A stretch of DNA of 41,943 nt from an uncultured Candidatus Peribacteria bacterium (GTDB lineage Bacteria > Patescibacteriota > Gracilibacteria > Peribacterales > Peribacteraceae). Made by a program: the position numbers and the translations under genes. This document shows, in pieces, positions 607-38,535 of the stretch. The stretch's first letter is position 1. Each line of letters begins with the position of its first letter. Location of the stretch: the NCBI GenBank assembly GCA_964548055.1, contig CAZJPS010000002.1, positions 1-41,943 of the forward strand, given 5' to 3'. Below the pieces are notes generated by a model, which was not told the DNA's origin, ran no database searches, and saw nothing but the letters and a program-made list of their open reading frames with translations.

Positions 607-1422
607 TTATTGAAAGAACCACTGCCATCCTTTTTGAGGTGGCGTGACCATCGTCACTGGCCTGCCCTCGATAGATTCAATTTTTTCGTCTTTTTCAACA
701 ATTCCCAGAACAGACGGCAGCAGCATGTAGGTGATGCCATGAGAGCGGCAGACTCCTAGCAAGTTAATCGACTGCTCGATATCGCTGCACTGGATCATGT
801 GCGTGATCTTTTTTTCTTGTAGCACATCTTCCAATTTATTCAGTTTCCCAAGCACAGGCACTCCTTCTATCTCCGTTTCTTTCGCACCTCTGCCGTCCAG
901 TATTGCTACAGGACAGAGAGGACTTTTGCGTTTTTCCATCAGCGCAATTAATTTTTTTGATTCACGTGTGATTCCCACAATGAGTGTAGGGAAAGCAGGG
1001 GGAGAGCTGCGTAGGTTTCTGCGTTGAAACTGATCAAAAATGCAGTGCCAGAGCCACGTGAAGGCAGTGGTAAACACGAGTGCAAAAATAATCAGCATGC
1101 GGCTGAATATTCCTTGGAAGAGGAAAAAGTAACAAAGGGCCACAAATGCCACTCCTACCACGGATGAATAGATGATGTAGGCGAGGTTGCGTGGATCTGC
1201 TTGATTCCTGGTGAGTGCAAACGCTCTGGTAGTGATGAGCACGCACAGCCAGGGGATTGCACTTAATGCCACGGAGATCATGAACTTCTGCAAGGGGAGA
1301 TCAGATGAAAGGATCCATCCCACCCGCAAAAAATAGGCCAGTACAAAAGAGGCGATAAACAGAACAATATCGGACATCAGCCAGAGGATAAGGAGAGAAG
1401 TGCGGCGCATGGATGACATCAT
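607..1422 (-). CDS. N-terminal (TM + CoA-binding-like) module of a polyprenyl-phosphate glycosyl-1-phosphate transferase; the catalytic domain is absent
   Basis: The 271-aa ORF starts with several hydrophobic helices. It continues with TLIVGITRESKKLIALM..PVAILDG..IEGVPVLGKLNKLEDVL..ITHMIQ..GITYMLLP, which fits the WcaJ/WbaP-type N-terminal region. The ORF ends (..MVTPPQKGWQWFFQ*) where the Bac_transf catalytic domain would start. Confidence 0.5.
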   Translation of the reverse strand: MMSSMRRTSLLILWLMSDIVLFIASFVLAYFLRVGWILSSDLPLQKFMISVALSAIPWLCVLITTRAFALTRNQADPRNLAYIIYSSVVGVAFVALCYFFLFQGIFSRMLIIFALVFTTAFTWLWHCIFDQFQRRNLRSSPPAFPTLIVGITRESKKLIALMEKRKSPLCPVAILDGRGAKETEIEGVPVLGKLNKLEDVLQEKKITHMIQCSDIEQSINLLGVCRSHGITYMLLPSVLGIVEKDEKIESIEGRPVTMVTPPQKGWQWFFQ

Positions 1423-4400: not shown

Positions 4401-5804
4401 CCCTTTTTTTCGCATTGAAAGATATGCCTGGGCGAATTTTCTTGTGTTTTGTAAGAATGTTCTATCAATGAGTTCCCAAAGCTTACTCTGTGAGTACGTG
4501 AAAGTCTTTCCATCGATAGTGATATCCCGATTTTCTGTAATAGTTCTGTCAATCTCACCAATATCGTCCAATCCAAAAGCATCTTCGAGAATCTTAATAT
4601 TCTCAGGTGTATAGATACTCGGATTCTTGAAGAAAGTAACAGGTTTGTTATTTACTAGATTTAGCACCTCCGTTATTGCTGCTTCATGAGCCACTTCTTT
4701 CTGGCGCAAAGATAGATATATAGGCACTGGAACTCCTGATTTTTTGAAGAAGATTCTACCAAGCAAGTTAACTAGCGCATTTTGCGAATATTTATACGTC
4801 ACTTCTCCAATAGCAATATGACACTGTTTTGTACTTGTTCTATCAATCTCTCTAATATCGTCCAATCCAAACGCATCCTCGAGAATCTTAATATTCTCAG
4901 AAGTGTAAACATCTGGATTCTTAAAAAACGTCGTAGAATTTAATTGCTTAAGCTTATCTGCAAAATTCATCGCTTCTTCAATTGCTTTCTTTGGGTCCAT
5001 TCCTTGCTTACAAAGATGAAGAAATGGACGAACAAATTTTTTCACACCACTGAAGAATGTTCTTGCAAGTAAATTAAAAAGAGCGTTCTGCGAGTAGCAG
5101 AACGTCGTTTCCCCTATAGTGATCTTAAATGGCTTAGTATTTTTTTTACTAAGTTTACCTATATCTGTTACTCCAAATGCGTTTTCTAAAATCTTGATAT
5201 TTTGAGGAGAATATACTTCTGAGTTACTAAAGAATACGGAAGGGGTAGCAGATTTTTCTCTTTCCTTTAAAATTTGCGCTTCTATGAGCGCATCTTTATG
5301 ACTCATTCTTCTTTTACGCAAAGCAAGATACTTTGACACAGGTATACATGTTCCTTGGAAAAATGTTCTTGCGATCAAATGCACAAGTGTAGATTGCCGG
5401 TACTTATATGTCGTTTTACCAATAGTAAGCTTGCAAATGTCATAATTATTCACATCAATCTCCTCAATAATTTTTAGGTTAAAGACTCTTTCGAGAGCTT
5501 GAATATTTGCCGGTGTGTAAAAATCTGGGTTTTTTAGGATTCCTGCAATTTCTTGGGATCGTTCATAATTATTGATACTACCACCATTTGATGATGCTAA
5601 TTGAAATGAAGCACAGAATTTTTTCATAAGTACTCGGATACGTTTGGTTGTGCCTCCGTCGATTGCATCAGCAATTTCATGGAGTGTTTTTCGTTGTTCC
5701 TTGGTGATTCTCCTATTTATATGTTTTTGTAATTGCTCATGCAGTTCCTGTTTTTCAGGAATATCCAGTGGGCCGATTTTTTTAAGGACTTCCTGAACAT
5801 TCAT
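1419..5804 (-). CDS. giant SNF2-family helicase with an N-terminal five-fold ~100-aa repeat array and a central Ig-like stretch
   Basis: The ORF track gives 1419..5888. I prefer ATG 5804-5802 (MNVQEVLKK) because the longer form overlaps the end of the upstream gene (5833). Helicase motifs are present: I ANAPGTGKTS (3096-3119), II VVVTDEGHSL (DEGH at 2823-2834), III LLVVTASP, and the C-lobe LVATYKAGSEGTTFTRGKAIIRDD..YQTDGRIRRI. A beta-rich segment IVIHTAIPKHTTENVLVIEGTAKGAEYVYMAGCRHYRVRVSPDGSFTMRAPLKTGETNSIRLMSL sits between the repeats and the helicase. Confidence 0.85.
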   Translation of the reverse strand: MNVQEVLKKIGPLDIPEKQELHEQLQKHINRRITKEQRKTLHEIADAIDGGTTKRIRVLMKKFCASFQLASSNGGSINNYERSQEIAGILKNPDFYTPANIQALERVFNLKIIEEIDVNNYDICKLTIGKTTYKYRQSTLVHLIARTFFQGTCIPVSKYLALRKRRMSHKDALIEAQILKEREKSATPSVFFSNSEVYSPQNIKILENAFGVTDIGKLSKKNTKPFKITIGETTFCYSQNALFNLLARTFFSGVKKFVRPFLHLCKQGMDPKKAIEEAMNFADKLKQLNSTTFFKNPDVYTSENIKILEDAFGLDDIREIDRTSTKQCHIAIGEVTYKYSQNALVNLLGRIFFKKSGVPVPIYLSLRQKEVAHEAAITEVLNLVNNKPVTFFKNPSIYTPENIKILEDAFGLDDIGEIDRTITENRDITIDGKTFTYSQSKLWELIDRTFLQNTRKFAQAYLSMRKKGVSHKVAAAEAILTKTPPVFFRNPDIYTLQNILILEKAFGLENMGIDHIDWNDSELCDIAIEGMVYRYTQGSLVQLLAYSFFEGQFKTVRPYLLYRKKGIDHATAVDMAQQGEDAQIDLENEKLSELGLEELIAIFQDSPKKLAFLLSRRPDLKLTEEQIERLVIRGFRNLGTRANLTKEAQYLRWPEELPDIVIHTAIPKHTTENVLVIEGTAKGAEYVYMAGCRHYRVRVSPDGSFTMRAPLKTGETNSIRLMSLCRVESPETKDEENETQHWIRSTQEVFKVRQTGTPDDIEELVRYLNGMGDELMKEIQTEPHKTLFYVDQFEHFLIKKFSRSFEEGKRYVNSLMRKHRSKFMQNILGKVLVNFQEINEMTFPGVHPERQPYFFQKFCIRLILKKIREVEIQNSAKKGAEAQEQQGVAGFIIANAPGTGKTSIVLIALNGEKMCIVAPNAVVSGWEEEAHECLTDPDLIVLREMTVSKRKDLLEKNAESHRVMNREFLRDLGDAERFSLASGPDFVVVTDEGHSLTHDSLQTQGTLKLPRKFLLVVTASPAKDPETLCRLLTHFYPGDKRFSSTKAFAEAFPSDDPKELRKLRLLLEKHMVRFTEDDVMELMDPTLPAEEQKHRLPAKEYVDPYKGLGSFTMHPKQAHAIYELFLNYPKWYATYGHNFPKKKDIIAKLDNLYTGDQMTKKHAMRQIINNPSFVGVTDCDPKAEKVREIIAECDQEGRPPVVFCAYNSQTDKYASMLADRDPAMYTGLETLRSKKFKRGPDGNPLHFKHAERKAQGKRNWEFDTKTGELNVATAEDKNSEPMHILDYHRLRFQNAKSCQALVATYKAGSEGTTFTRGKAIIRDDLEEDYLMRYQTDGRIRRIDHKYPTHTSVKYYSLISTYPEEFLEEMKQRWVVKQEDGTYKEFLDKDEADEEAVKLDTKAQTAFKAFFEQGTWDQVHHENLQTQQEIFQIINDGIGDSSLLKIDQSKFKGFNSGTGNTV
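4071..5540 (-). repeat. five tandem intragenic repeats (periods 102/102/98/96 aa) inside the SNF2 gene
   Basis: Repeat units start at ORF residues 117, 219, 321, 419 and 515. The shared pattern is FFxNPx[IV]YTxxNIxILExAFGLxDIxxID...IxIGxxT[YF]xYSQxxLxxL[LI]xRxFF...YLx[LM]RxKGxxHxxA. Units 3 and 4 also share a ~80-nt nearly identical DNA block (4852-4930 versus 4559-4640). Confidence 0.9.
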
Positions 5805-5832
5805 GGGAATAACGGCCGGAAGAGGGGATATC

Positions 5833-6678
5833 CTATACTCCGGGGAAATAGTTTTCCACCCACTCCAACTTCTTCTGCAGCACCTCACTCTTCTCCGCTT
5901 TCTTTTCGAATCCTGCTTTATCAGTCATATACATACTGACGCTCTCCGCTAAATCTTCAAACGGATCTGTTTTTGCATAGGCAGTGACAAAGTCTTCAGA
6001 TTTTGCGTCAGATTTTTTGGTGGAACTGTTTTGCCACGAAAGGGAATAGAAACTCACGCTCGGATCATTATTCCAAAGGGGAGTGTTGCCATCCTTGAAG
6101 GCGCTGGCACCACTTGTAGAAGTTCCTTTCAAGCACGAAATATCCCAAAAGTGGCCAAGGCCTTCATGGCTTAAGAGTTCTTTAAATTCGGCATCGGATA
6201 GTGTGCCATTCATAATAATCACACCATCACCCGCAAGTCCGCGATGTTTGGGCTGATCGTACAGAACATAGTACTGGCGAAGTTTTTGTTGGCAGGAAGG
6301 CGGAAGAATACTCAGTACTTCACGTGTCATTGCTCGATGCTTTGGAAGAATATCTCCTTTTTCAATCGCTGAGAGCGGATCGATGGGAATAACTGGAATA
6401 GCTGCAAGATAAGGACCCTTGTGAGAGGAATCAGAAGAAACAGAAGAAATAGATGATTCAGAGGAAAAGTCATACGAATTGTTCATGAGCTGATGCACAT
6501 CATTCTTCCGATTCCTCTGAGTCGTCTGAATCCTCTGATTCTTTTCAATATTCCCATTATGGGCCACCACCTCAGTCCCACTTGCCATATTCACACCTTG
6601 TGATAGGCTCGGCTCTAGCCCAAGCAGAATTCCACAGGTTCCGAGAGTGACAATGGTAAGAAATTTTTTCAGGTTCAT
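5833..6678 (-). CDS. secreted protein with metallopeptidase-like HExxxH and EDLAE motifs
   Basis: The 281-aa ORF has a signal peptide (MNLKKFLTIVTLGTCGILLG) and a Ser-rich linker. It carries LLSHEGLGHFWD and a C-terminal FVTAYAKTDPFEDLAESV, which resemble putative zinc-binding metallopeptidases. It lies 28 nt upstream of the helicase on the same strand. Confidence 0.45.
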   Translation of the reverse strand: MNLKKFLTIVTLGTCGILLGLEPSLSQGVNMASGTEVVAHNGNIEKNQRIQTTQRNRKNDVHQLMNNSYDFSSESSISSVSSDSSHKGPYLAAIPVIPIDPLSAIEKGDILPKHRAMTREVLSILPPSCQQKLRQYYVLYDQPKHRGLAGDGVIIMNGTLSDAEFKELLSHEGLGHFWDISCLKGTSTSGASAFKDGNTPLWNNDPSVSFYSLSWQNSSTKKSDAKSEDFVTAYAKTDPFEDLAESVSMYMTDKAGFEKKAEKSEVLQKKLEWVENYFPGV

Positions 6679-10315: not shown

Positions 10316-10477
10316 TACAAAGCACCTGATATCAGAATAGGGAAGGCAAATAACTGGTTATTTACCTACTCCTTCTTAAGCTGTGGAAGCGCTTTCCGTT
10401 TTCCAAAGCGAAAGCGGTGCATGCGCATTGCTCTTTGGCATAACGGTTTTCAGTTCAAAATCTTGCAGGAGTGTACG

Positions 10478-11290
10478 ATGAAGAATTTTTTCGAGAAGAA
10501 CATGATCAAGATCGCGTTCGTGAGCCTGCACCTGTGTGTGCTGGCTGTCTTTTTCGTTCAGCCGACTTGGACGTCAGCGTGCCTTTGCATAGGGTTTTAC
10601 TTCCTACGCATGTTTGGGATCACCGCGGGCTATCATCGCGGTCTTTCCCATCGATCCTACGAGTCAGGAAGATTCGTAAGGTTCATAATGGCGTGGCTGG
10701 GATGCAGCGCCATGCAGAAAGGACCCTTGTGGTGGGCCGCAAAGCATCGCGACCATCACAAGTACTCCGACACAGGCAATGATCCCCATTCGCCGGTCGC
10801 TCATGGGGTCTGGTGGTCTCACATTGGGTGGGTGCTTTCTTCGTATGAGGAGAAAAAAGCACCCTCCACGGTGAGGGATCTTGCGAAGGCGTGGGAGCTG
10901 CGCTTTCTTGATCGGTACCACTGGGTACCGGGGCTTAGTCTCGCAATTCTCTGTTTCACCTTGGATGGCTGGAGCGGAATTGTGTGGGGATTCGTGGTGA
11001 GCACCGTGCTGCTCTACCACGGGACGTTCCTCGTGAACTCCGTTTGCCATATTTTTGGCAGACAGCGGTTTAAGACAGGGGACCAGAGCAGGAACAACGC
11101 TCTGGTTGCAATCCTGTTCACGATGGGGGAAGGGTGGCATAACAACCACCATCACCGTCCTGCTCTAGCGCGGCAGGGAGTTACATGGTGGGAGCTGGAT
11201 TTTAGCTTCTACATCTTGTGGCTCCTTGCTCAGTGTCGGCTTGTGTGGAATCTGCACAAGCCACCGCCGCGTGGGCGGCTGGAAACCTAG
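10478..11290 (+). CDS. acyl-CoA/acyl-lipid delta-9-type fatty acid desaturase
   Basis: Three His boxes are present: HRGLSHRSY, HRDHHKYSD and GEGWHNNHHH. I prefer the start at ATG 10478 (MKNFFEK); the track ORF begins at 10421. Confidence 0.85.
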   Translation: MKNFFEKNMIKIAFVSLHLCVLAVFFVQPTWTSACLCIGFYFLRMFGITAGYHRGLSHRSYESGRFVRFIMAWLGCSAMQKGPLWWAAKHRDHHKYSDTGNDPHSPVAHGVWWSHIGWVLSSYEEKKAPSTVRDLAKAWELRFLDRYHWVPGLSLAILCFTLDGWSGIVWGFVVSTVLLYHGTFLVNSVCHIFGRQRFKTGDQSRNNALVAILFTMGEGWHNNHHHRPALARQGVTWWELDFSFYILWLLAQCRLVWNLHKPPPRGRLET

Positions 11291-11426: not shown

Positions 11427-11501
11427 GGCCTCATCGTCTAACGGTTAGGACAGCAGGTTCTCATCCTGCAAATCGGGGTTCGATTCCCCGTGGGGCTGCC
11501 A
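11427..11501 (+). tRNA. tRNA-Glu: tRNA-Glu (anticodon CTC at 11460-11462), with CCA encoded
   Basis: I folded the cloverleaf by hand. The acceptor pairs GGCCTCA with TGGGGCT (two G-U pairs) and the D arm is GTCTAACGGTTAGGAC. The anticodon stem GCAGG/CCTGC carries the loop TTCTCAT. The T arm is CGGGG-TTCGATT-CCCCG, followed by discriminator G and CCA. Confidence 0.9.
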
Positions 11502-21313: not shown

Positions 21314-21407
21314 GCGGACGATGGAGGTGAGTGTACCTTATGGTAAGTTCTTGGCTCAACGAGACGGTCTTTACAGAGGGGCGAAGAAATCCGCAGATGT
21401 GAAAGTG

Positions 21408-22493
21408 TTAGTGAAGGGGTGATTGGTAACACTTTTCATCGCCCCATGCGGCTTCATTCGGCGTTCTGTAGCTGAGGGCCATATGCGGGCGATCATCGTT
21501 GTAATCGACCATCCACTGGATAAGAGCACCATTCAACATTTCCATATCGGTGCAATCCTTCCATGGTGGAAGGAATTCCTCTCGCAGCGTGCGATTGAAT
21601 CGTTCTAGCTGAGAATTGTCCTTCGGTGTCCTGACGCGACTCCAGTAGTGACCGAGCTTCAGCTCCAACACGGCCTTCTGAAAATGCCGGTGGAACTCAG
21701 TGCCATTGTCCGTCTGCACGTTCCGCATGGTTCCTCGCATATTTCGATTCAAAAGGTGTAGGAATTCGGCCGCGTTTTTCGAGCTGTGGGTTTTGTAGAC
21801 ACGCGCAAAGCCCCAGCGAGAATGCCGGTCGAGTGCCGTGAACATCGAAAACGTTGCTTTTCCCTGCCTGAGTATCACCGTATCGATGCTGACGAGAAAA
21901 CCAGTCTTTGGCTCCTTGATGAGTTTCGTGATGCGTTGCTTCTTCTCCGCGTACTGACGTTTGTACGCTAGCCGCCGGGCACGTTTCACATCCGGATAGA
22001 GCTGGTAGCGTTCAATGATCTTCTGTACCTGCCAGGAAGAAATCTTCGTACCATACTGTCTTTCATAGATGGCAGCAATCTTCATCTTCGAGTAGAGCGG
22101 ATATGCTGATCGCAAGAAGAAAAGACGTTGGCTTTGTTCCGGATCAAGCACAGGGAGTGGACCGACTTTTGGACGATGGGAACCGTTTTCCAGCGATTGA
22201 GGCTTCGTCACATCGAACCGTTTCTTCCAGACGTAAAATGTCTTCCGCGAAATGCCGAAATAGCGGCACGTCTTTTTGGTATTCCCCTTGAACGTTGTGT
22301 TGTAGGCGACGAACCAATCCAGACGCTGCCGTGCTTCTCGCGTGAGTGGAACTCTCAGCGATCCTGCCAGGAGAATCGTCCATATCTGTTTTGCTTTTTC
22401 GGGATTCCGTCGCGCATTTCCCCACAGGGCTTGCTGCAGTTGCATACGCTCAGCGTCGGTGAGATTCTTCGGAGAATGTTCTTGGACTGTCAT
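21408..22493 (-). CDS. IS481-family (rve integrase-core) transposase
   Basis: I prefer the start at ATG 22493 (MTVQEHSPK). The N-terminal HTH is TCRYFGISRKTFYVWKKRF. The DDE core is SIDTVIL, VQTDNGTEF and NSQLERFNRTLREEF, and it ends DYNDDRPHMALSYRTPNEA. Confidence 0.85.
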   Translation of the reverse strand: MTVQEHSPKNLTDAERMQLQQALWGNARRNPEKAKQIWTILLAGSLRVPLTREARQRLDWFVAYNTTFKGNTKKTCRYFGISRKTFYVWKKRFDVTKPQSLENGSHRPKVGPLPVLDPEQSQRLFFLRSAYPLYSKMKIAAIYERQYGTKISSWQVQKIIERYQLYPDVKRARRLAYKRQYAEKKQRITKLIKEPKTGFLVSIDTVILRQGKATFSMFTALDRHSRWGFARVYKTHSSKNAAEFLHLLNRNMRGTMRNVQTDNGTEFHRHFQKAVLELKLGHYWSRVRTPKDNSQLERFNRTLREEFLPPWKDCTDMEMLNGALIQWMVDYNDDRPHMALSYRTPNEAAWGDEKCYQSPLH

Positions 22494-22510
22494 GGGAGGC
22501 GATACAAATT

Positions 22511-22750
22511 CTAATCCTGTTCCAGCATCTTCCGAAGAAGGATTGCCAGTGCCTCGACCGCATCGCTCGGAACGTCGGCTTCCGCTAGGGCTCCCATGCC
22601 GGGCACGCGTGCTTGAAAAACTCCCGTCCCTTCGGTTGAGAAATCCACTGGCATTACCATGTAGCACTTTCCTGCATAAGCGTCGAAGAGCGGCATAGGA
22701 ACACCATCTTCCTGTAAGATTTGCCGCTGCTCATCGGTGACGAAGATCAC
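22511..22750 (-). CDS. small hypothetical protein (weak HicB/UPF0150-like resemblance); possibly the 3' part of a TAG-interrupted gene
   Basis: The 79-aa ORF starts with GTG. The segment GVFQARVPGMGALAEADVPSDAVEALAILLRKMLEQ is HicB-like. It is in frame with ORF 22760-22963 across a single TAG at 22760-22762. Confidence 0.3.
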   Translation of the reverse strand: MIFVTDEQRQILQEDGVPMPLFDAYAGKCYMVMPVDFSTEGTGVFQARVPGMGALAEADVPSDAVEALAILLRKMLEQD

Positions 22751-22925
22751 CGGCGCAGTCTACACCGTGCCCGTGTGTGGAATAATTTTCTGATAGACAA
22801 TGTGATCGATCCACGCAAAAACCACGCGGCGCTCCGAACCGTTTACTGCGCCATCTGCGCTCGGTATAATGAGAGGGCAACCCGACAGCCCGGGAGGCGT
22901 GTTTTCCCTAGGGAGTCCTGAAACC

Positions 22926-24707
22926 ATGGCCGAGGCTGGGCAGTTCCACCCCAAGGTCTTCATCAGCTACAGCCACAGGGATGAACGGTGGAAGGACCGC
23001 CTCCTCATCCACATGAGGGTATTGCAGCGAGAGGCTGCGTTCGACATCTGGGATGACCGCCGTTTACGGGCTGGAGACCACTGGTACGAAGAAATCCAGT
23101 CTGCGTTGCGGACCGCAAACCTGGCGATCCTTCTCATCTCGGCCAACTCTCTGACGTCCGATTTCATCCTCCGAGAGGAAGTCCGTTCCTTGCTCCAGCG
23201 GCACGAGCGGGAGGGCCTGCGCATCATTCCGATCGTCCTTGAGCCCTGTGCTTGGCAGAAAGTTGGTTGGCTGAGTAAGATGCAACTCCTCCCCAAGGAT
23301 GGCCGACCTCTCTCGCAGGCCCGCCGCCGCCACGAGATCGAGGCGGAGCTGACTGCAATTGCAACCCTCGTCTTCGATCTCCTGCGCGAGGCTACGTTCG
23401 CATCGGTCCAGCCCTCGCGCCCAGCCCCCATGCCCTCTACCGATACCAGTCCGTCACCGGCAGCCGCCTACAATGACCTCCTTGCGCTGGCCGCGACACA
23501 GCAGCAGTGTGGGCAGTACAGCGGCGCCCAACGAGCGTTCGAAAAGGCCATCAGCATCCTGGGACAGCTCGTCGAACGATCGCCTGCGGTGTCCGCCTAC
23601 CGTTCAAGTTTGGCGGTGGCCTGCAACAACTTTGGCAATCTCCTTCGACGCCTCGGCCGTTTGTCCGATGCGAAGGACTACTACCACAGAGCCTTGGACT
23701 TGGAGGAGCGCCTCCACGAGGAAGAGCCCGATAGTCCTGACTACCTCAATGACACGGCGCGCACCCACCACAACTTGGGCACGGCCCTGTGGGATGAGAA
23801 ACACCTCGGCCCAGCAGCCGCTGCCTTTCGCAGATCCGTGGAGATCCGTGCGTGGTTGGTTGCCAACACGGCAGGCCATCCACGTCACTGCCTTTTCCGC
23901 CGAGAGCTGGGAGATAGTTACACTTTTCTCGGCAAGATACTGTGGCAAATGAACAATGTCTGTGATGCGGAAGCTGCTTTCCGCCACGCGCTTCACTGGT
24001 TGGAGCCGCTCGTCATGGCACACCCTGCGCCCATCGAAGCTCGCATGGAGCTGGGATTGGCCTACGCGGGCTTGGCGAGACTGCTCGCCGAATGCCAGGC
24101 AGACCGGCGACAGGAAGCGGAAGCTCTGTATGCAAAAGCTCTGACCTGCCAGCACGGCCTTGTTGATGAGTTGCCTACCGTCCCCGATCACCGACATCAC
24201 CTTGCGTTCACGTTGGGCGGCCTTGCCCGTTTGTTACAGAAGCAGGAGCAACGGGCGCAAGCCCTGGACTACATTCGACAAGCCATCGACCATGGCTTGC
24301 AAGTGTTGGAATCCGTGAGCCCACAGCCGCGGCAGTGGCACGGGGATTGTACCCGCGACTATCGGTACCTCCTGGCAGTGCTGCTGGAGATGGGCAACTT
24401 TGATGAGGCGGCAACGGCAGCGACGGAAATCCCTTCCGCCCTTCGCACGGATCCGTCGGATTGCATCAGGTGGGCAGCATTTCTCGCTCCTTGTGTCAAA
24501 GAATGGGTGAAGCCAGGTACGCTCAACCTGGAACGCAACACGCGCTGCTTCGAGAACCTCGCAATGGAACAACTGCGTGAGGCTGTCGATAAGGGGCATG
24601 GTGATCCGGAACAACTGTTAACAGACAAACGTTTTGAGGCGATGCGGTCCCGCGCAGACTTCCATGAATTGATTACCAGATTGCGCAACAATTCGGCCCA
24701 GGAATGA
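22926..24707 (+). CDS. TIR domain protein with a long C-terminal TPR array
   Basis: I prefer the start at ATG 22926 (MAEAGQFHPKVFISYSHRDERWKD). The TIR_2-like pattern is FISYSH...DIWDD...G..W..EI..AL..A.LAILLISANSLTSDFILREEV...IIPIVLEPC. Two candidate catalytic Glu residues lie at 23175-23180. Multiple TPR-like helical pairs follow a Pro/Ser linker. There is no P-loop. Confidence 0.8.
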   Translation: MAEAGQFHPKVFISYSHRDERWKDRLLIHMRVLQREAAFDIWDDRRLRAGDHWYEEIQSALRTANLAILLISANSLTSDFILREEVRSLLQRHEREGLRIIPIVLEPCAWQKVGWLSKMQLLPKDGRPLSQARRRHEIEAELTAIATLVFDLLREATFASVQPSRPAPMPSTDTSPSPAAAYNDLLALAATQQQCGQYSGAQRAFEKAISILGQLVERSPAVSAYRSSLAVACNNFGNLLRRLGRLSDAKDYYHRALDLEERLHEEEPDSPDYLNDTARTHHNLGTALWDEKHLGPAAAAFRRSVEIRAWLVANTAGHPRHCLFRRELGDSYTFLGKILWQMNNVCDAEAAFRHALHWLEPLVMAHPAPIEARMELGLAYAGLARLLAECQADRRQEAEALYAKALTCQHGLVDELPTVPDHRHHLAFTLGGLARLLQKQEQRAQALDYIRQAIDHGLQVLESVSPQPRQWHGDCTRDYRYLLAVLLEMGNFDEAATAATEIPSALRTDPSDCIRWAAFLAPCVKEWVKPGTLNLERNTRCFENLAMEQLREAVDKGHGDPEQLLTDKRFEAMRSRADFHELITRLRNNSAQE

Positions 24708-24962
24708 TACGAAACCAGACATTACTGTGATGTGAAAGTTAACGAGTAACTGTTCACAGGTCGAAACTGCGGAAAACACAGGGCTTTTTGATGATGGCCC
24801 TAATTTCTAAGACAAAACTGACCACTCGAAAAGCGATTTGCGTCAAAAAAACGCTGGGAAAACGCCTGTTTCACCCTATGAGCGCATACGATAACGAAGC
24901 CCAAAGTGTTACCTCTCACTGCCGTCATGTGCAAAAGCAACACCTCGCTGTATACTGTGTAC

Positions 24963-25436: not shown

Positions 25437-25579
25437 CTCTGCAATAAGGAAAGGGATTGAAAGGAATGGGAAGTCCTTCTCACGGCAGCTTTTTGATCGT
25501 TATCCCTTCAATCCCTTTATTCCCTTGAATCCTTTTGCCCCTTACCAATCCTTATATTTGCGCTTATACTCCAGTAAAG

Positions 25580-26488
25580 ATGATTGAGTTCCAGCGTCTC
25601 ATTCTCGGTGATCAAGTGCGCAACAAGGTTTTTGAAGATGCCTTAAAGAGGGTCATCCGGCCTGGCGAAAGTATTGTGGCCGATATAGGTTCGGGCACTG
25701 GATATCTTTCTTTCCTAGCCTCCAAGATGGGAGCCAAGGAATGCCACCTGTATGAGTTTTCTGAACTCCTTCCGCTCAGTAAAGAGATCGCAAAAAAGAA
25801 TGGGATCAAGAACCTGCACTTTCATCATGCACATTCCATGAGCGTGAAGAACCCTGTGAAAGCAGATATTGTGATATCCGAAACACTTGGAAATTATGCG
25901 CTAGAAGAGAATATGTTGGAGACACTGAGCGACGCTAAGCGGTATCTAAAAGAAGGTGGCGTGATGATCCCCCAGACTCTTACTCAATATGTAGTTCCCG
26001 TGACAAGTGATCGCCTCCATAAGGAAATCAATGTGTGGGACACGCTCGGACACGGTCTTGATTTTTCCCCTGCCAAGGAAATCTGTTTCCATAACATGTA
26101 TGTGAAAACTCTCCGTCCCGATGAGCTTTTGCAAAATGGAATTCAGGAATGGGACAGTATTGATTTCCGCAAAGGCGGTTCGAGCATTCGTCAGGCTGAT
26201 GTTGTTTGGTCTATGCAGAATCCACAGAAAATCTATGGATTTGTGCTCTTCTGGCATTGCGAATTGCTACCAGGGATCACTCTCTCTACTACTCCACTTC
26301 ACCCACCCACACACTGGCAGCAGATCTATTTACCACTCATAGAGCCGCTATCCCTGCAATCAAACGACACTCTCAAGCTCCATCTGCATTCCGATTCTAG
26401 GTTGAAAGTGAAAATAAGGCTGAAATGGAAAGCGGAGGGAGGAGGGGAGAGTTCAATAGAGATGGATACGCACAAGGGACTCGTGTAA
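25580..26488 (+). CDS. protein arginine N-methyltransferase (PRMT)-like SAM methyltransferase
   Basis: Motif I is VADIGSGTGYL and post-I is HLYEFS. ADIVISETLGNYALEENML matches the double-E loop, and LKEGGVMIPQ is motif III. PPTHWQQIYLPL matches the THW loop in a C-terminal beta-barrel-sized domain. I prefer the start at ATG 25580. Confidence 0.7.
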   Translation: MIEFQRLILGDQVRNKVFEDALKRVIRPGESIVADIGSGTGYLSFLASKMGAKECHLYEFSELLPLSKEIAKKNGIKNLHFHHAHSMSVKNPVKADIVISETLGNYALEENMLETLSDAKRYLKEGGVMIPQTLTQYVVPVTSDRLHKEINVWDTLGHGLDFSPAKEICFHNMYVKTLRPDELLQNGIQEWDSIDFRKGGSSIRQADVVWSMQNPQKIYGFVLFWHCELLPGITLSTTPLHPPTHWQQIYLPLIEPLSLQSNDTLKLHLHSDSRLKVKIRLKWKAEGGGESSIEMDTHKGLV

Positions 26489-34106: not shown

Positions 34107-34463
34107 ATGAATGTTCAGCACTTCGAGAAAGGGATTGCCTATACGGATCAGGATTTGATTGTTCTGGCGCGGAAAATTGGAAAATTGGCCACCTTTTGCA
34201 AGCACGTGAAGAACGAAGCGTCGCTCATTCGAGTTGAGTCCGAGCAGCGCAAAACCAAAAAGGCGCAAGATCAGGTGAAAGTGATGCTCACTGTGGATCT
34301 TCCAAAAAAACAATTCAGAGCAGAATCTCGACGGCCGATTGTGATGGATGCCCTAGATCGTTGCATAGAAAAGCTGACGCCCCAAATTCAGAAGTATAAG
34401 GAGCTCCACACAGGTCGAGGGAAAGCACGCCTTGGCGCTCGCCGTTCCCGGACGGAAGCATGA
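34107..34463 (+). CDS. hpf: ribosome hibernation/translation inhibition factor, short RaiA/HPF form
   Basis: MNVQHFEKGIAYTDQDLIVLARKIGKL...VKVMLTVDLPKKQFRAESRRPIVMDALDRCIEKLTPQIQKYKE fits the S30AE fold pattern. Its TGA overlaps the next ATG in an ATGA at 34460-34463. Confidence 0.75.
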   Translation: MNVQHFEKGIAYTDQDLIVLARKIGKLATFCKHVKNEASLIRVESEQRKTKKAQDQVKVMLTVDLPKKQFRAESRRPIVMDALDRCIEKLTPQIQKYKELHTGRGKARLGARRSRTEA

Positions 34464-36049
34464 GAAGAACAGGCGATGCCCGCAGGCTCTTAAGCATGAT
34501 GAAAAGAGGAAACTGCAGTGTGCGAAGAATCTTTTCTTGTATAGGAACAGCCGCGTTTGTCGGTATTCTCTGGCTCCTTCCAGTTCATGCGCAGGAGCAA
34601 CTTCACAGCCAAAGTGCTGGCGTGACAGCAGTGATTGTAGGACCAGCCGATACCCCTGTTGGACGCACCATTATTTTAAGTGCTTCTGCCAGCCAAGTTG
34701 CAGGAAATAATGTGCAATATTTTTGGTACGTGAATTCAGAAAAAGAACCCATCAGCACATCGGTAGATGTGATCTATACACCGGAAAGAGCAGGGGACGT
34801 GGAATTCCATCTTGTGATTCGAAGCCTTTTAAATGGCCAACGATTGGAAGATGACGAATATCACACGGTCACTGCGTTTAGCAGAAAAGTGGTATTGATT
34901 ACCGATACGCATTTATCGGATGCACACATACAAAATCTGCAAAATGCAGCTGCATCTGGTTCTACGTATTTGCGCGTACTTCGTTCCCATATTTCTTCGC
35001 AAACCCGCGGAGGGGAAACCGCACTGGGAGCCCTCCTTTCCGAAGAAGTGGAAGCGTTTAGTGATGCAGAAAGCATAGTGTTCTGGACAGACGATCTTCC
35101 TCCGGTCGGATTACAGGCGTTACTGAATATTGTGAAAGGAAATCGAAAACGTTTGCTTGATGTGCGTGATCAGACATTCTTACTCATTACAGATCTTCAT
35201 CTGCGGACGGTGGCACGCACTGCTATCGGCCCCGGAAATGAGTTGCATCCAAAAAAATTGATGGTGGCCAAATCCGAGCTCATACCGATGCTCTTGCAAT
35301 CAAAGAATGACGAAGAATTTTTGAATGCAGCATTTCAAGCTCGTGCGGAGGAGCCGCTCATTATGGATGTATTCGCTGTCCACATTCCGCTTTGGCAGCT
35401 TGTGTCTCGGCTCCTTATAACCATGCTCGCGCTTGGTGTTTCCAGCCAAACCATCCTGCTTCTGCTCGTTCTTCCTATTATTGCCACCATTCTTTCATTT
35501 TTGAAACAGGTGGTTGGTATGACCACTTTTGGGCTTTTTACACCTTCTATTATCGCGCTTAGCTTTTTAGTTCTTGGGTGGCCAGTGGGCGTTCTCTTCT
35601 TGCTTTTCATTCTCATGACGGGGTACGCAACTCGCGCTCTCATGCGAAGGCTGCATATTCTGTATATACCAAAGATGGCCATCATCCTTGGTGTAGGAAG
35701 CCTGACCATATTGTTTCTCGTAGGTATTGGCACCTTCTTTGGAGTATTTCTTAGCTACGATACGGTCTTTGTACTTCTGATTATGAGCACGCTCGTAGAA
35801 AGCTTCTTAAATGTGAAATCAGAAGAAGGCCTGCGCTCTGCAGTATTTGGTATAAGCCAAACAATTATTGCCGCGCTTTTATGCGTGTTTATCGTGCAGT
35901 GGCCTTCATTCCGCGCTCTCATTATCGCCTATCCAGAAATTATTCTTTTCACTCCTATCATCAATATTTTGCTGGGGAGATGGACGGGATTGCGCGTGTC
36001 AGAATATTTCCGCTTCAGGGAAGTGTTCCGCCATCTTGCGCAGGAATAA
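34460..36049 (+). CDS. signal peptide + Ig/PKD-like + alpha/beta ectodomain + C-terminal 7TM module (7TM_transglut-like)
   Basis: The 529-aa ORF may instead start at 34496 or 34499 (MMKRGNCSVRRIFSCIGTAAFVGILWLLPVHAQ). The C-terminal half is polytopic and contains LKQVVGMTTFGLFTPSIIALSFLVLGW. That segment resembles the 7TM partner of RimK-like ATP-grasp enzymes. Confidence 0.6.
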   Translation: MRRTGDARRLLSMMKRGNCSVRRIFSCIGTAAFVGILWLLPVHAQEQLHSQSAGVTAVIVGPADTPVGRTIILSASASQVAGNNVQYFWYVNSEKEPISTSVDVIYTPERAGDVEFHLVIRSLLNGQRLEDDEYHTVTAFSRKVVLITDTHLSDAHIQNLQNAAASGSTYLRVLRSHISSQTRGGETALGALLSEEVEAFSDAESIVFWTDDLPPVGLQALLNIVKGNRKRLLDVRDQTFLLITDLHLRTVARTAIGPGNELHPKKLMVAKSELIPMLLQSKNDEEFLNAAFQARAEEPLIMDVFAVHIPLWQLVSRLLITMLALGVSSQTILLLLVLPIIATILSFLKQVVGMTTFGLFTPSIIALSFLVLGWPVGVLFLLFILMTGYATRALMRRLHILYIPKMAIILGVGSLTILFLVGIGTFFGVFLSYDTVFVLLIMSTLVESFLNVKSEEGLRSAVFGISQTIIAALLCVFIVQWPSFRALIIAYPEIILFTPIINILLGRWTGLRVSEYFRFREVFRHLAQE

Positions 36050-36141
36050 ATTGATCTTTTTCATACTATGATTTCTGATTTTGATTTACAGTAAAAAGAC
36101 CAGATCTGGAGTAGTTTTTCAATTTCTTCGCTTCTCTTCGC

Positions 36142-38535
36142 TTGGTTTTCCCTTTTTTCCGCCACGGAATTCTTGGCCTCAATGCTCGTAATTTGTTGTA
36201 TTTGAGGCCATATAACCCCAAAAAGGCTGTCGCATTTGCAGATAACAAACTGAAAACAAAAGCATACTTATCTGCGCGTGGAATCCCCACTGCAAAGATA
36301 TATGCAAGAATAGAAACGCGTGGGCAATTGCGAAGCTTTGATTTTTCTACTCTTCCAGAAGAATGTGTACTCAAGCCTAATTATGGATTTGGAGGAGAGG
36401 GAATTCTTATTTTAAAGGGGCGAAAAAATGGGATGTTTTTGGAGCAGGGGAAAGTACCCATTCCAGACAGTAGATTACGCGAACACATCGAAGATATTTT
36501 AGACGGAAAATTTTCGGTGAATGGAAAGATGGACACGGCATTCTTTGAAAAAATTCTTGTGTCACATGAGGGGTTTGCGCCCTTTAGACCTGCAGGACTT
36601 CCTGATGTACGCATTGTGGTATTCAACCTTGTTCCCGTAATGGCAATGCTCCGTGTTCCCACAGCGCAAAGCAGGGGAAAGGCGAATGTGCATATGGGAG
36701 GATTAGGCATTGGAATCGATATTGCAAAGGGGGTTACTACGCATGCATTCCAATACTCTTCGCTTCTTACAGAGCTTCCCCATCATGGAGGAAATCCCGC
36801 AGGCATTCCCATTCCTTTTTGGCAGGAAATGCTGCTCATTTCCTCACGTATTCAGTACATGACAAATATCGGGTACCTAGCAGTAGATTTAACGTTGGAT
36901 AGGGACCAGGGACCGGTACTTTTGGAGGTGAATGCACGTGCGGGCCTTATGGTGCAGGTAGCCAATTTAGCTCCGCTCCGCTCGCGTTTGGAGCGTGTAG
37001 AGGGACTGAGTGTTAGTTCTCCAGAAAAAGGTGTGCGTATTGCACAAGATTTGTTTGGAGAAAAAGTGGAAAAATCTGCAGAAGTACAAACGAATAGACC
37101 ACGCTTAGGCGTGCGAGAAAATATATTTGTACATTCAAAAGGGATGAATATGGAAGTGCCAAGCATCATTAATCCTGCGGCATCGGAATACACTATTTTT
37201 ACGCCCGATTTACTTCAGGAATTGCAGGCGCAAGGAGGCGCAGAGCTTTCCGAAGAGTCGGAAGATATTGATCGTCAATTCTACCGAGTTAAATTTACAT
37301 TGGGTGGTAAAAAAATTCAGACGCATGTGTATGCTGGGAGCGTACCCTACCCCTCTGCTCGTGCACTTATCGGGCGCAGAGACCTCGCAGGTTTTTATAT
37401 AGATCCAGCAAAAGAACCCGAAGTACCCATTACTATTACTCGGATGCGTATCGATACACGCGCAACCGATAGAATTCTTTTGCAGATGGATGAAGAATTG
37501 ATGCTACTCAAGCATCTGAAGCCCATCAATCTTCCCGGAGAGCGCATTCAGTTAGAACGCGATCGCAATTATAGCCCTCATTTTTTGTATGCCCCTCTTC
37601 CCGAAGCTATTGATGATATTGAGCGCAAGCTCCGTACCTTACCCACAGACGATTCGTCATTAGGGATTCTTCTAAATAAAAAGCGCAGAGAACTTTTGAT
37701 GCGTATTGCTCTTTTCCGCGCACGTGGGAACAGTGAGCGGTTTACACAGGCATCACAAGCCCTCTTTGGTGCGCCCCATGCAGATTTACTAGCATCGGCG
37801 TTCCATGTTCTTGCTTCTCGTACCAGCTGCGATCTTCCTCTGCCAAAAAATCAAATGCTTACATCGGATCAGGCAGCAGCGCGCTTTGATGAAATGCTTT
37901 CCCAGTATGGGCTTCACGATTGGCAGGTGAGTGTACGCGAAGCATTGGTGTCGGATTGTGCGGTTGGGTGGAAGCGCCTCTATGTTCGCAAAGGAGCAAT
38001 ATTTTCTCCTACACATGTGGAATCACTCATGGCGCACGAAATAGAAACGCATATTCTCACAGCCGAGAATGGAGCGCAGCAGCCGTTTGATATTTTCCGC
38101 CGCGGTTTTGCAAATTATTTAGATACGCAAGAAGGATTGGCATCGTATAATCAGAATAGAGTACTTCCAAAAAACCACGATAAACGGTTTGGTCCAGCAC
38201 GCAGTGTTGTAGCAATTGCCTATGCCCTTGAACATTCTTTTGTGGATACACGTAAATATCTGGAAGCAGAGTTAGGATACACATCTGAGAAATCACTCAC
38301 CAAAGCAATTGAACTCAAGCGCGGCCTTTTTGATACTTCAGAGCCTGGCTGTTTTACAAAAGGACTGGTGTATTATCGCGGGCTTAGAGCAATCGAGCAC
38401 TTTGAAGAGAGCGGAGGAGATTTGAAGCGTTTGTACATAGGCAAAATTGCACTAGAGGATTTAGACTGTGCAGAGCAGGTAGAAGGAGTAAAACCACCAC
38501 TGCTTATTCCAGCATTTCTTAGAAAAAAGAAGTAA
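36142..38535 (+). CDS. fusion protein of alpha-L-glutamate-ligase-like ATP-grasp + degenerate retropepsin-like domain + DUF1704/QEGLA HExxxH metallopeptidase-like domain
   Basis: The start is TTG at 36142. The N-terminus VFPFFRHGILGLNARNLLYLRPYNPKKAVAFADNKLKTKAYL...VLKPNYGFGGEGILIL matches the ATP-grasp family I recall as TIGR02291. The middle region LGVRENIFVHS..IINPAASEY...ALIGRRDLAGFYIDP is retropepsin/Zn_protease-like. The C-terminal region carries HEIETH (38035-38052) and QEGLA (38128-38142). Confidence 0.75.
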   Translation: MVFPFFRHGILGLNARNLLYLRPYNPKKAVAFADNKLKTKAYLSARGIPTAKIYARIETRGQLRSFDFSTLPEECVLKPNYGFGGEGILILKGRKNGMFLEQGKVPIPDSRLREHIEDILDGKFSVNGKMDTAFFEKILVSHEGFAPFRPAGLPDVRIVVFNLVPVMAMLRVPTAQSRGKANVHMGGLGIGIDIAKGVTTHAFQYSSLLTELPHHGGNPAGIPIPFWQEMLLISSRIQYMTNIGYLAVDLTLDRDQGPVLLEVNARAGLMVQVANLAPLRSRLERVEGLSVSSPEKGVRIAQDLFGEKVEKSAEVQTNRPRLGVRENIFVHSKGMNMEVPSIINPAASEYTIFTPDLLQELQAQGGAELSEESEDIDRQFYRVKFTLGGKKIQTHVYAGSVPYPSARALIGRRDLAGFYIDPAKEPEVPITITRMRIDTRATDRILLQMDEELMLLKHLKPINLPGERIQLERDRNYSPHFLYAPLPEAIDDIERKLRTLPTDDSSLGILLNKKRRELLMRIALFRARGNSERFTQASQALFGAPHADLLASAFHVLASRTSCDLPLPKNQMLTSDQAAARFDEMLSQYGLHDWQVSVREALVSDCAVGWKRLYVRKGAIFSPTHVESLMAHEIETHILTAENGAQQPFDIFRRGFANYLDTQEGLASYNQNRVLPKNHDKRFGPARSVVAIAYALEHSFVDTRKYLEAELGYTSEKSLTKAIELKRGLFDTSEPGCFTKGLVYYRGLRAIEHFEESGGDLKRLYIGKIALEDLDCAEQVEGVKPPLLIPAFLRKKK

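What the first reader, a model, noticed from the sequence alone, without database searches (positions are those of the whole stretch)
22926..24707. Horizontally acquired TIR-TPR protein: a candidate stand-alone NADase-type immune or conflict effector
The N-terminal ~150 aa match the bacterial TIR pattern (KVFISYSHRDERW..., ILLISANSLTSDFILREEV, IIPIVLEPC). Glu103 and Glu104 (23175-23180) lie at the position where TIR NADases carry their catalytic Glu. After a Pro/Ser linker, about 430 aa of TPR-like repeats follow. No NTPase, STING, SAVED or other sensor module is present. The gene is far more GC-rich than its surroundings (70% at 23401-23460 by hand count) and sits next to a transposase. TIR domains are effectors in Thoeris, CBASS, Pycsar and Avs-like systems. 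A TIR fused only to a TPR sensor-like array, on a mobile unit in this kind of genome, deserves testing.
Basis: partly seen in the sequence, partly recalled or inferred. Interest (0 to 1): 0.7.

Follow-up and report, generated by a model that had tools for sequence, protein, structure and literature searches.

The report
Transposon-borne TIR–TPR immune-type gene
A small-genome Peribacteria (CPR) bacterium has acquired, next to an insertion sequence, an intact gene that fuses a probable NAD-cleaving TIR domain directly to a TPR repeat array; this layout is already known from tested phage-defence proteins, so it is a credible but fairly ordinary candidate defence gene.

Summary
Window 22926-24707 (+) encodes an intact 593-aa protein. 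It has a confidently predicted TIR fold (aa 10-160), a 17-aa disordered Pro/Ser linker, and an all-helical TPR solenoid (aa 178-592). There is no NTPase, STING, SAVED or APAZ module.

One correction: of the two glutamates at 23175-23180, only the second (23178-23180) is invariant (67/67 relatives). Profile alignment places it on the catalytic Glu of solved TIR NADases.

The gene is the strongest compositional outlier in the window (GC 0.60 against 0.46). It lies beside a complete IS481-like element. An 11-nt direct repeat brackets IS plus gene (21406-24728), which suggests a single 3.3-kb insertion into a Peribacteria chromosome.

Only one full-length homologue turned up (55% identity), and it also sits on a mobile island. 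The TIR belongs to a clade mostly found on STAND NTPase-TPR proteins. The TPR module otherwise occurs on membrane-spanning Ser/Thr kinases.

No partner gene is conserved. The most likely function is a single-chain sensor-effector that consumes NAD+ when triggered.

The architecture is not new: a one-protein TIR+TPR system in E. coli (TIR-II, Wang et al. 2024) has tested anti-phage activity. NADase activity and immunity are untested here.

The parts
22926..24707 (+). TIR-TPR gene (593 aa; an alternative upstream ATG at 22869 would give 612 aa)
   Evidence: ORF. The start is chosen from the homologue's N-terminus, the AGGGAG at 22910-22915 and the promoter-like site. The product is in the public protein collection as P0001, from a 41,943-bp NCBI contig.
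22953..23405 (+). TIR domain (aa 10-160)
   Evidence: Pfam TIR_2 E 8.6e-16. PADLOC ThsB1 TIR-like model E 1.2e-24, covering the TIR portion only. AF2 pLDDT 93.4. Foldseek PDB returns only TIR domains. A family profile against PDB sequences gives Cat1 4e-8, AtTIR 9e-8, Roq1, RPV1, AbTir and PdTIR.
23178..23180 (+). Codon of the candidate catalytic Glu (E85 from ATG 22926; E104 from ATG 22869)
   Evidence: Invariant in 67/67 relatives, while the preceding Glu (23175-23177) varies. The profile HMM places it on the Glu of the C-L-x-E-L motif of Cat1, AtTIR, Roq1 and RPV1, with a one-residue insertion in this family.
23406..23456 (+). Disordered Pro/Ser-rich linker (aa 161-177)
   Evidence: pLDDT is below 50 for aa 161-173 in the full-length model and there is no secondary structure there. 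This is the highest-GC stretch of the gene.
23457..24701 (+). TPR alpha-solenoid (aa 178-592, about 20 helices), ending in a 'TPR end-of-group' cap at 24555-24674
   Evidence: Pfam TPR_10, TPR_12, TPR_8, TPR_2 and TPR_1. NCBIfam NF047558 TPR_END_plus E 1.8e-9. AF2 pLDDT is mostly above 90. Foldseek matches CTPR, OGT, LGN and KLC superhelices. Of the 39 closest relatives of this module, 35 are Pkinase-TPR proteins.
22842..22870 (+). Promoter-like site TTTACT-17-TATAAT upstream of the gene
   Evidence: Matches 10 of 12 consensus positions. This is a consensus match only. A second site at 22759-22786 takes its -35 hexamer from the last six bases of the IS end.
21406..22764 (-). IS481-like insertion sequence, 1,359 bp: small ORF 22511-22750 plus DDE transposase 21408-22493, with TGT ends
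   Evidence: rve, rve_3 and HTH domains. NCBIfam IS481 E 8.7e-57, below the curated cut-off. There is 72-73% nucleotide identity to two other copies (L084, L083) across both ORFs, and it stops at 22767 and 21411. The ends were read from the three-way comparison.
21396..21406 (.). Left copy of the direct repeat GATGTGAAAGT, abutting the outer IS end
   Evidence: This 11-mer occurs only twice in the window. A match this long between the two junction regions arises in 18 of 5,000 shuffles.
24729..24739 (.). Right copy of the direct repeat GATGTGAAAGT, 22 nt after the TIR-TPR stop and at the GC drop
   Evidence: for the repeat. GC falls from about 0.58 to 0.43 here.
24903..24927 (.). Inverted, degenerate copy of the IS outer end (21/25 identical), of unclear status
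   Evidence: First seen as inverted repeat I4. A local alignment score of 28 is reached by 1 of 1,000 shuffles. It may be an older IS scar or an alternative transposon end.

Best explanation
The gene encodes a single-chain sensor-effector of the bacterial conflict or immunity type. It arrived by horizontal transfer together with, or by means of, an IS481-like element, as a 3.3-kb insertion in the divergent promoter region between an AI-2E transporter gene and a peroxiredoxin (Bcp) gene of a Peribacteria (CPR) chromosome.

Shown:
- A TIR fold with an invariant Glu at the catalytic position.
- A directly fused cytoplasmic TPR solenoid.
- No NTPase and no partner gene.
- Foreign composition.
- An IS neighbour and a flanking direct repeat.

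Inferred mechanism:
- In the resting state the TIR domains are monomeric or held off by the TPR array.
- Binding of a trigger to the concave TPR surface brings TIR domains together. The trigger is most plausibly a phage protein or peptide, possibly a multimeric one.
- As in other TIR enzymes, this completes composite active sites around the catalytic Glu.
- NAD+ is then hydrolysed, which arrests the infected cell (abortive infection).

In logic it resembles an Avs/TIR-STAND receptor without the ATPase switch, or DSR2 (a SIR2 NADase joined to a helical-repeat sensor) with a TIR in place of SIR2.
For: TIR fold and catalytic Glu.

TPR solenoid and absence of any NTPase.

TIR clade: the TIR is 45-60% identical to N-terminal TIRs of about 930-aa TIR-NACHT/AAA_16-TPR proteins and of other multidomain conflict-type proteins.

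Conserved architecture: the same layout is kept co-linearly at 54-55% identity in the only full-length homologue, P0002. The TIR is more conserved (68%) than the TPR (49%), the usual pattern of a conserved effector and a faster-evolving sensor.

No conserved neighbour: the window has an IS and housekeeping genes, while L001/L002 have metal-efflux genes plus a serine recombinase and PriCT. This supports a stand-alone gene carried on mobile elements in both cases. Only 23 of the window's roughly 40 large ORFs were scanned against PADLOC; within that set, and among the genes near the TIR-TPR, no defence partner was found. The only hits are generic SAM-methyltransferase matches.

Horizontal transfer.

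Insertion unit.

Precedent: the one-protein TIR+TPR system TIR-II protects E. coli from phages and needs its TIR active site (PMC11350192).
Against: No enzymatic or phenotypic data exist for this protein or for P0002.

The aromatic residue before the Glu is Phe or Tyr with +5 spacing, not the canonical W-x-x-x-E, so the active-site geometry is inferred only from alignment.

The nearest TPR relatives sit on the far side of a membrane helix in Ser/Thr kinases (35/39), so their ligands may have nothing to do with phages.

Only two family members were found in about 5.8 billion clusters and none in viral or plasmid collections. The family is therefore rare and there is little comparative power.

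Homology to the tested TIR-II protein could not be checked. No defence island surrounds the gene.
Confidence: 0.55

Rival explanations
1. It is a signal-producing TIR of the Thoeris ThsB type. On sensing infection through the TPR it makes a cADPR-like or other ADPR-derived messenger, which activates an effector encoded elsewhere in the genome.
For: The best PADLOC hit is a ThsB1 TIR-like model, E 1.2e-24. TPR domains take part in TIR signalling systems, for example the ThsI effector of type VII/VIII Thoeris and BcTir/BcTpr.
Against: The PADLOC match covers only the TIR part (model positions 2-133 of 319), and Pfam ThsB_TIR is below its cut-off (19.4 against 21.2 bits). No ThsA-like or other effector lies in the inserted unit, among the genes nearest to it, or among the 23 window proteins scanned against PADLOC. 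None lies next to P0002 either. A 3.3-kb unit carrying only the sensor would be useless on arrival.
Confidence: 0.12
2. It has a non-defence role: a cytoplasmic regulatory or scaffolding protein, or an NADase used in conflict between the episymbiotic CPR cell and its host or competitors, rather than against phages.
For: The TPR module is otherwise attached to receptor-type Ser/Thr kinases, which are signalling proteins. Many bacterial TIR proteins tested are not anti-phage; 20 of 32 E. coli candidates showed no defence (PMC11350192). P0002 sits among metal-efflux genes.
Against: There is no signal peptide, TM helix or secretion-associated neighbour. The catalytic Glu is invariant across 67 relatives with diverse architectures, which argues for an enzyme rather than an adaptor. 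Carriage on mobile elements and a patchy distribution are typical of defence genes.
Confidence: 0.13
3. It is recently landed, effectively inert cargo. The gene is intact only because the transfer is recent, and it is not expressed or has no function in this host.
For: Composition is unameliorated, with GC3 0.69 against about 0.45. Its position beside an IS is typical of transient insertions. No related Peribacteria locus fetched carries it. Only one contig carries this exact protein.
Against: The 1,782-nt ORF has no frameshift or stop. All family-invariant residues are kept. Promoter-like and Shine-Dalgarno-like sequences are present upstream.
Confidence: 0.15
4. It is an assembly or binning artefact, with a GC-rich fragment from another organism joined into a Peribacteria contig.
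For: The compositional break is sharp. The source is a metagenome-assembled contig. IS elements are common sites of misassembly.
Against: About 21 kb and 17 kb of host-composition DNA, mostly housekeeping genes, flank the segment on either side. ProRS on the right flank is 73% identical to Peribacteria and its two neighbours are syntenic in L003. A chimera would need two junctions. The junctions carry an 11-nt direct repeat that is unique in the window, as expected for a real insertion.
Confidence: 0.03

Closest known systems
E. coli TIR-II, a one-protein TIR+TPR anti-phage system (Wang et al. 2024, Nat Commun, PMC11350192)
   Same: It is a single polypeptide with a TIR and a TPR array and needs no obligatory partner. 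Its defence depends on TIR active-site residues. It is described as the most abundant and widespread TIR system, and about 30% of members also have an ATPase.
   Different: Sequence homology could not be tested because the accessions are in a supplement that is not held. The window protein's TPR belongs to a module otherwise found on Ser/Thr kinases and ends in a TPR_END cap. The host is a CPR bacterium and the gene rides with an IS481-like element.
TIR-STAND receptors (TIR-NACHT/NB-ARC/AAA_16-TPR; Avs-like, bNACHT, PADLOC 'TIR-NLR')
   Same: The TIR is 45-60% identical to the N-terminal TIRs of these roughly 930-aa proteins, and both have a C-terminal TPR sensor.
   Different: The defining central NTPase is absent: the TIR and the TPR are joined by a 17-aa linker. 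The TPR is not the STAND-associated MalT-like type but the kinase-associated type.
Planctomycete-type receptor Ser/Thr kinases (Pkinase-TM-TPR-TPR_END)
   Same: They are the closest relatives of aa 190-590, at about 30-35% identity over about 390 residues including the C-terminal cap.
   Different: They carry a kinase instead of a TIR. They also have one membrane helix between the catalytic domain and the TPR in 35 of 39 cases, whereas the window protein and P0002 have none.
DSR2 (SIR2 NADase plus helical-repeat sensor that binds phage tail tube protein)
   Same: It follows the same logic: an NAD+-destroying domain fused to an alpha-solenoid sensor, with no NTPase and a single gene (PMC11850899 and PMC11290490 abstracts).
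   Different: The NADase fold is different (SIR2 against TIR) and there is no sequence relation. This is a functional analogy only.
Thoeris ThsB
   Same: It is a TIR domain, and the best PADLOC model hit is ThsB1.
   Different: There is no ThsA or other effector gene. The TPR fusion is not part of classical ThsB.

Membership tests
TIR-domain NAD+-consuming enzymes (Pfam TIR_2 / TIR) | Flavodoxin-like TIR fold | tested here: met
   TIR_2 scores 59 bits against a cut-off of 28. AF2 pLDDT is 93.4. The Foldseek PDB top 42 are all TIR domains.
TIR-domain NAD+-consuming enzymes (Pfam TIR_2 / TIR) | Catalytic Glu in the alpha-C helix | tested here: met
   E85 (E104) is invariant in 67/67 relatives and aligns to the catalytic-motif Glu of Cat1, AtTIR, Roq1 and RPV1. 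The alignment is sequence and profile based; no 3-D superposition of side chains was available.
TIR-domain NAD+-consuming enzymes (Pfam TIR_2 / TIR) | NAD+ cleavage activity | not testable with these tools
   This needs a biochemical assay.
E. coli TIR-II (one-protein TIR+TPR defence) | TIR and TPR in one protein, with no required partner | tested here: met
   Domain architecture. No conserved neighbour between the window and L001/L002.
E. coli TIR-II (one-protein TIR+TPR defence) | Sequence homology to the tested TIR-II representative | not testable with these tools
   The accessions are only in Supplementary Data 2, which is not held. PADLOC-DB 2.0.0 predates the system.
E. coli TIR-II (one-protein TIR+TPR defence) | Anti-phage activity dependent on the TIR active site | not testable with these tools
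   This requires an experiment.
TIR-STAND / Avs-like / bNACHT | Central STAND NTPase (Walker A/B; NACHT, NB-ARC or AAA_16) | tested here: not met
   There is no NTPase family in Pfam, NCBIfam or PADLOC. The model shows TIR, then a 17-aa linker, then TPR. Relatives do carry GGVGK after the TIR.
TIR-STAND / Avs-like / bNACHT | C-terminal repeat sensor | tested here: met
   TPR solenoid at aa 178-592.
Thoeris | ThsB-type TIR protein | tested here: inconclusive
   PADLOC ThsB1 scores E 1.2e-24 but over the TIR core only. Pfam ThsB_TIR scores 19.4 bits, below its cut-off of 21.2.
Thoeris | Adjacent effector gene (ThsA SIR2/Macro/TM-SLOG, or another Thoeris effector) | tested here: not met
   No PADLOC defence hit was found among 23 window proteins other than generic methyltransferase matches. 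None lies beside P0002.
CBASS / Pycsar TIR effectors and SPARTA | STING, SAVED or cNMP-sensor domain with a nearby cyclase; or APAZ with a short pAgo | tested here: not met
   The protein contains only TIR and TPR. The weak PADLOC SAVED_TIR hit covers the TIR part only. No cyclase or Argonaute was found among the neighbours.
IS481-family insertion sequence (the neighbour) | DDE (rve) transposase, TGT termini and a short target duplication | tested here: inconclusive
   The rve/rve_3 domains and the best NCBIfam match to IS481 are present, but at 192.8 bits against a cut-off of 224. TGT ends were inferred from three copies. No duplication flanks the IS alone; the 10-11-nt repeat flanks IS plus TIR-TPR.

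The most novel reading that the evidence does not exclude
The protein could be a minimal TIR immune receptor without an NTPase, whose sensor was taken from the extracytoplasmic TPR arm of receptor-type Ser/Thr kinases and moved into the cytoplasm. An IS481-like element would then mobilise it as a 3.3-kb 'IS plus one gene' unit across phyla into an ultra-small CPR symbiont. If so, simple insertion sequences would ferry ready-to-use single-gene immune receptors, and ligand-templated TPR clustering alone, with no ATPase switch, would be enough to fire a TIR NADase.
Probability: 0.15. Interest if true: 0.55.

Novelty: new member of a known kind. Interest (0 to 1): 0.33.

Why it matters
If active, this would be a compact, one-gene abortive-infection system in a Peribacteria genome of roughly 1 Mb. 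It would illustrate how streamlined episymbionts sample the shared pool of defence genes through insertion sequences.

The family has only two members so far. It pairs a STAND-type TIR with a kinase-type TPR module and has no ATPase. That makes it a clean test case for how a TIR enzyme can be switched on by a repeat sensor alone.

It does not open a new category. TIR+TPR single-protein defence has already been demonstrated experimentally in E. coli, and defence systems in CPR genomes have already been catalogued.

Tried and rejected
1. Empty-site test. I looked for a related genome with the AI-2E transporter and Bcp genes adjacent and no insertion. The first genome-contig scan, with the TIR-TPR protein, found nothing. 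The second, with ProRS, found Peribacteria at 73% identity or less, and synteny there stops before the site. The metagenome scan with the transporter found only a 43% relative. The question is unresolved.

2. Exact-sequence look-ups of window proteins gave no organism names.

3. A PDB profile search with the untrimmed alignment A1 was swamped by TPR and STAND hits. I repeated it with the trimmed TIR alignment A2.

4. PDB entry 9m0n/9umd is an 824-aa 'tetratricopeptide repeat protein' with an N-terminal TIR, and it matched the TIR profile at E 1e-3. No paper was found for it and its relation to this protein could not be established.

5. A word-indexed homologue search with the TPR half alone returned almost nothing. 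The exhaustive representative search was used instead.

6. Plasmid, phage and IMG/VR searches found no full-length relative.

7. A transposon end to the right of the gene. No convincing terminal inverted repeat abuts the right direct-repeat copy at 24728. A significant IS-end-like sequence lies further out, at 24903-24927. Taking it as the boundary would put about 200 bp of AT-rich, native-looking DNA, and the second repeat copy, inside the unit. I therefore favour the repeat-defined boundary but could not settle it.

8. Non-coding DNA is not conserved between the window and L001.

9. I considered and rejected the idea that the protein is a truncated STAND protein. P0002 keeps the same short architecture co-linearly at 54-55% identity.
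Full report
**What is there.** The window is a 41,943-bp NCBI contig. Its housekeeping genes place it in Candidatus Peribacteria/Peregrinibacteria (CPR): its archaeal/eukaryote-type ProRS is 73% identical to Peribacteria MAGs and at most about 54% identical to other phyla. It runs 22869..24707 (+) from the first ATG.

- The only full-length homologue starts at the equivalent residue.
- AGGGAG lies 10 nt upstream.
- The ATG at 22869 sits inside the -10 hexamer of a promoter-like site at 22842-22870.

I number residues from 22926.

**Domains.**
- Pfam finds TIR_2 (E 8.6e-16) and several TPR families, and nothing else.
- NCBIfam adds a 'TPR end-of-group' cap near the C-terminus.
- An AlphaFold2 model of aa 1-175, built on 67 aligned relatives, has pLDDT 93.4. 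Its best PDB matches are all TIR domains: RPPT, RPP1, L7, TLR1, BtpA, SPARTA TIR-APAZ, RUN1, SARM1 and AbTir (target-normalised TM 0.79, rmsd 2.7).
- The full-length model (pLDDT 92.8, pTM 0.73) shows the TIR at aa 10-160, a disordered linker at aa 161-177, and an uninterrupted helical solenoid at aa 178-592. There is no room for an NTPase.
- The solenoid matches consensus TPR, OGT, LGN and kinesin-light-chain superhelices.
- No transmembrane-like segment or hydrophobic N-terminal signal-type segment is present.

**The catalytic residue.** Eleven positions are invariant across 67 relatives: F12, S14, Y15, D19, W42, D44, G50, W53, I57, S78 and E85. E84 is Glu in only 37 of 67. A TIR-only profile (A2) hits Cat1, AtTIR, Roq1, RPV1, AbTir, PdTIR, RUN1 and RPP1 in the PDB. 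It aligns E85 to the Glu of their C-L-x-E-L motif, with a one-residue insertion in this family. A plain pairwise alignment had instead put E84 there. The aromatic residue before it is Phe or Tyr rather than Trp, with +5 spacing.

**Relatives.** Only one full-length homologue was found among about 5.8 billion clusters. P0002 has 626 aa and is 55% identical over 97% of the query. The alignment is co-linear with two small indels. The TIR half is 68% identical and the TPR half 49%. The two halves otherwise have different relatives:
- The TIR is 45-60% identical to N-terminal TIRs of roughly 930-aa TIR-NACHT/AAA_16-TPR STAND proteins. It also resembles TIRs fused to kinase-FGE, FGE, WD40 or further TIR copies.
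- The closest relatives of the TPR half in an exhaustive search of 1.84 billion representatives are Ser/Thr kinases of 1,000-1,600 aa: 35 of 39 sampled carry Pkinase.
- In the same sample, 35 of 39 have a single membrane helix, lying between the kinase and the TPR. In those proteins the TPR arm is therefore on the other side of the membrane. The window protein and P0002 have no such helix.

The protein is thus a rare recombinant of a STAND-type TIR with a kinase-type TPR module.

**Horizontal transfer and the mobile unit.**
- The gene is 0.598 GC against 0.462 for the rest of the window. Its GC3 is 0.69 against 0.37-0.54 for 11 of the 12 other window genes measured (the desaturase at 10421-11290 is 0.67). 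It is the top tetranucleotide outlier, with z = 4.8.
- Its left neighbour is an IS481-like element. Comparison with two other copies (L083, L084; 72-73% nucleotide identity) shows that the 79-aa ORF at 22511-22750 belongs to the IS. It also shows that the IS runs from 21406 to 22764 with TGT ends.
- The TIR-TPR gene therefore lies outside the IS proper. No target duplication flanks the IS alone.
- An 11-nt direct repeat, GATGTGAAAGT, occurs only twice in the window. One copy abuts the outer IS end (21396-21406). The other lies 22 nt past the TIR-TPR stop (24729-24739), exactly where GC falls to host level. A repeat this long arises in 18 of 5,000 shuffles of the junction regions.
- The simplest reading is that IS plus gene (21406-24728, 3.3 kb) entered the divergent AI-2E/Bcp intergenic region in one event. 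This could have been transposition using a surrogate end or microhomology-mediated integration of a circle.
- A degenerate inverted copy of the IS end at 24903-24927 (reached by 1 of 1,000 shuffles) complicates this picture and remains unexplained.
- P0002 also sits on a mobile island, with metal-efflux genes, a large serine recombinase and a PriCT primase, in a 0.70-GC genome.
- A misassembly is unlikely. It would need two junctions, and the junctions carry a duplication.

**Context.**
- No defence partner was found among 23 window proteins scanned against PADLOC. The only hits are generic methyltransferase matches for RlmI and a PRMT-like enzyme.
- Nothing is shared between the window and the P0002 loci apart from the gene itself.
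- The strong PADLOC ThsB1 hit (E 1.2e-24) covers only the TIR core. Pfam ThsB_TIR is below threshold.

**Mechanism.** Shown: the fold, the conserved Glu, the fused TPR, the lack of an NTPase or partner, and mobility. Inferred: the protein is a self-contained sensor-effector. The TPR binds a trigger, the TIR domains cluster, composite active sites form, and NAD+ is destroyed, arresting the cell. I give this 0.55. The rivals are:

| Rival | Confidence |
|---|---|
| Signal-producing TIR with an unlinked effector | 0.12 |
| Non-defence signalling or inter-cellular conflict role | 0.13 |
| Inert recent cargo | 0.15 |
| Assembly artefact | 0.03 |

**Comparison with what is known.**
- TIR+TPR in one protein is not new. 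Wang et al. 2024 cloned an E. coli one-protein TIR+TPR system (TIR-II) and showed phage protection that requires TIR active-site residues. They reported it as the most abundant TIR system, with about 30% of members also carrying an ATPase (PMC11350192).
- TPR proteins also partner with TIRs in BcTir/BcTpr and in the ThsI effectors of Thoeris types VII/VIII.
- CPR genomes are known to hold few defence systems per genome but at high density, and are thought to acquire and lose them dynamically (PMC12259885).
- Membership of TIR-STAND fails on the defining NTPase. Membership of Thoeris, CBASS, Pycsar and SPARTA fails on the partner or sensor. Membership of TIR-II is met at the level of architecture but is untestable at the level of sequence.

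**Verdict.** The protein is best filed as a new, rare member of the known class of single-chain TIR-repeat sensor-effectors. Two modestly interesting features are the kinase-derived TPR module and the apparent 'IS plus one gene' insertion into a CPR genome. Interest is 0.33.

Noticed in passing
window 21406-22764: The IS481-like element carries a conserved 79-aa ORF (22511-22750) upstream of the transposase. It has no Pfam, NCBIfam or PADLOC match. It is kept at 65-71% identity in two other copies (L083, L084) from genomes of about 0.58 GC. Its function is unknown.
   Followed up: partly
window 24903-24927: A degenerate inverted copy of the IS outer end (21/25 identical; reached by 1 of 1,000 shuffles) lies about 175 bp beyond the repeat-defined insertion boundary, just upstream of the Bcp gene. 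It could be a scar of an earlier IS visit, an IS target preference, or an alternative transposon end.
   Followed up: partly
window 22759-22786: A promoter-like site takes its -35 hexamer (TCTACA) from the last six bases of the IS end and its -10 (AATAAT, with an upstream TG) from the flanking DNA. It points toward the TIR-TPR gene and may be an IS-created hybrid promoter.
   Followed up: no
window 10421-11290 and 11427-11501: A fatty-acid desaturase gene has raised GC (0.54; GC3 0.67, close to the TIR-TPR gene). It lies next to the window's only tRNA gene (tRNA-Glu CTC) and may be a second horizontally acquired gene.
   Followed up: partly
window 1419-5888 (and 4000-6000): A 1,489-aa ORF has only a weak SNF2-related match and no PADLOC hit. 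It spans an AT-rich stretch (GC 0.35-0.38) that is the second-strongest tetranucleotide outlier in the window (z about 2.2).
   Followed up: partly
window 34460-38535: A 7TM_transglut membrane protein gene is followed, on the same strand, by a gene encoding a fusion of a sugar-transfer-associated ATP-grasp domain with a MATCAP-like (tyrosine carboxypeptidase family) domain. This is a putative peptide-ligation and trimming pair, and an unusual one for a reduced genome.
   Followed up: no
window 25535-26488: A protein-arginine-methyltransferase-like gene (PRMT_C and PRMT5_C oligomerisation subdomains) lies in the CPR genome and is conserved next to ProRS in the relative L003. PRMT-like enzymes are mainly known from eukaryotes.
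   Followed up: no
L001 10001-11881 (P0002 locus): The only full-length homologue sits between CDF/HMA metal-efflux genes and a serine recombinase plus PriCT primase module, in a 0.70-GC contig. The weak nearest plasmid match for the adjacent CzcA gene is to a Planctomyces plasmid. This is only a hint about the donor lineage.
   Followed up: partly
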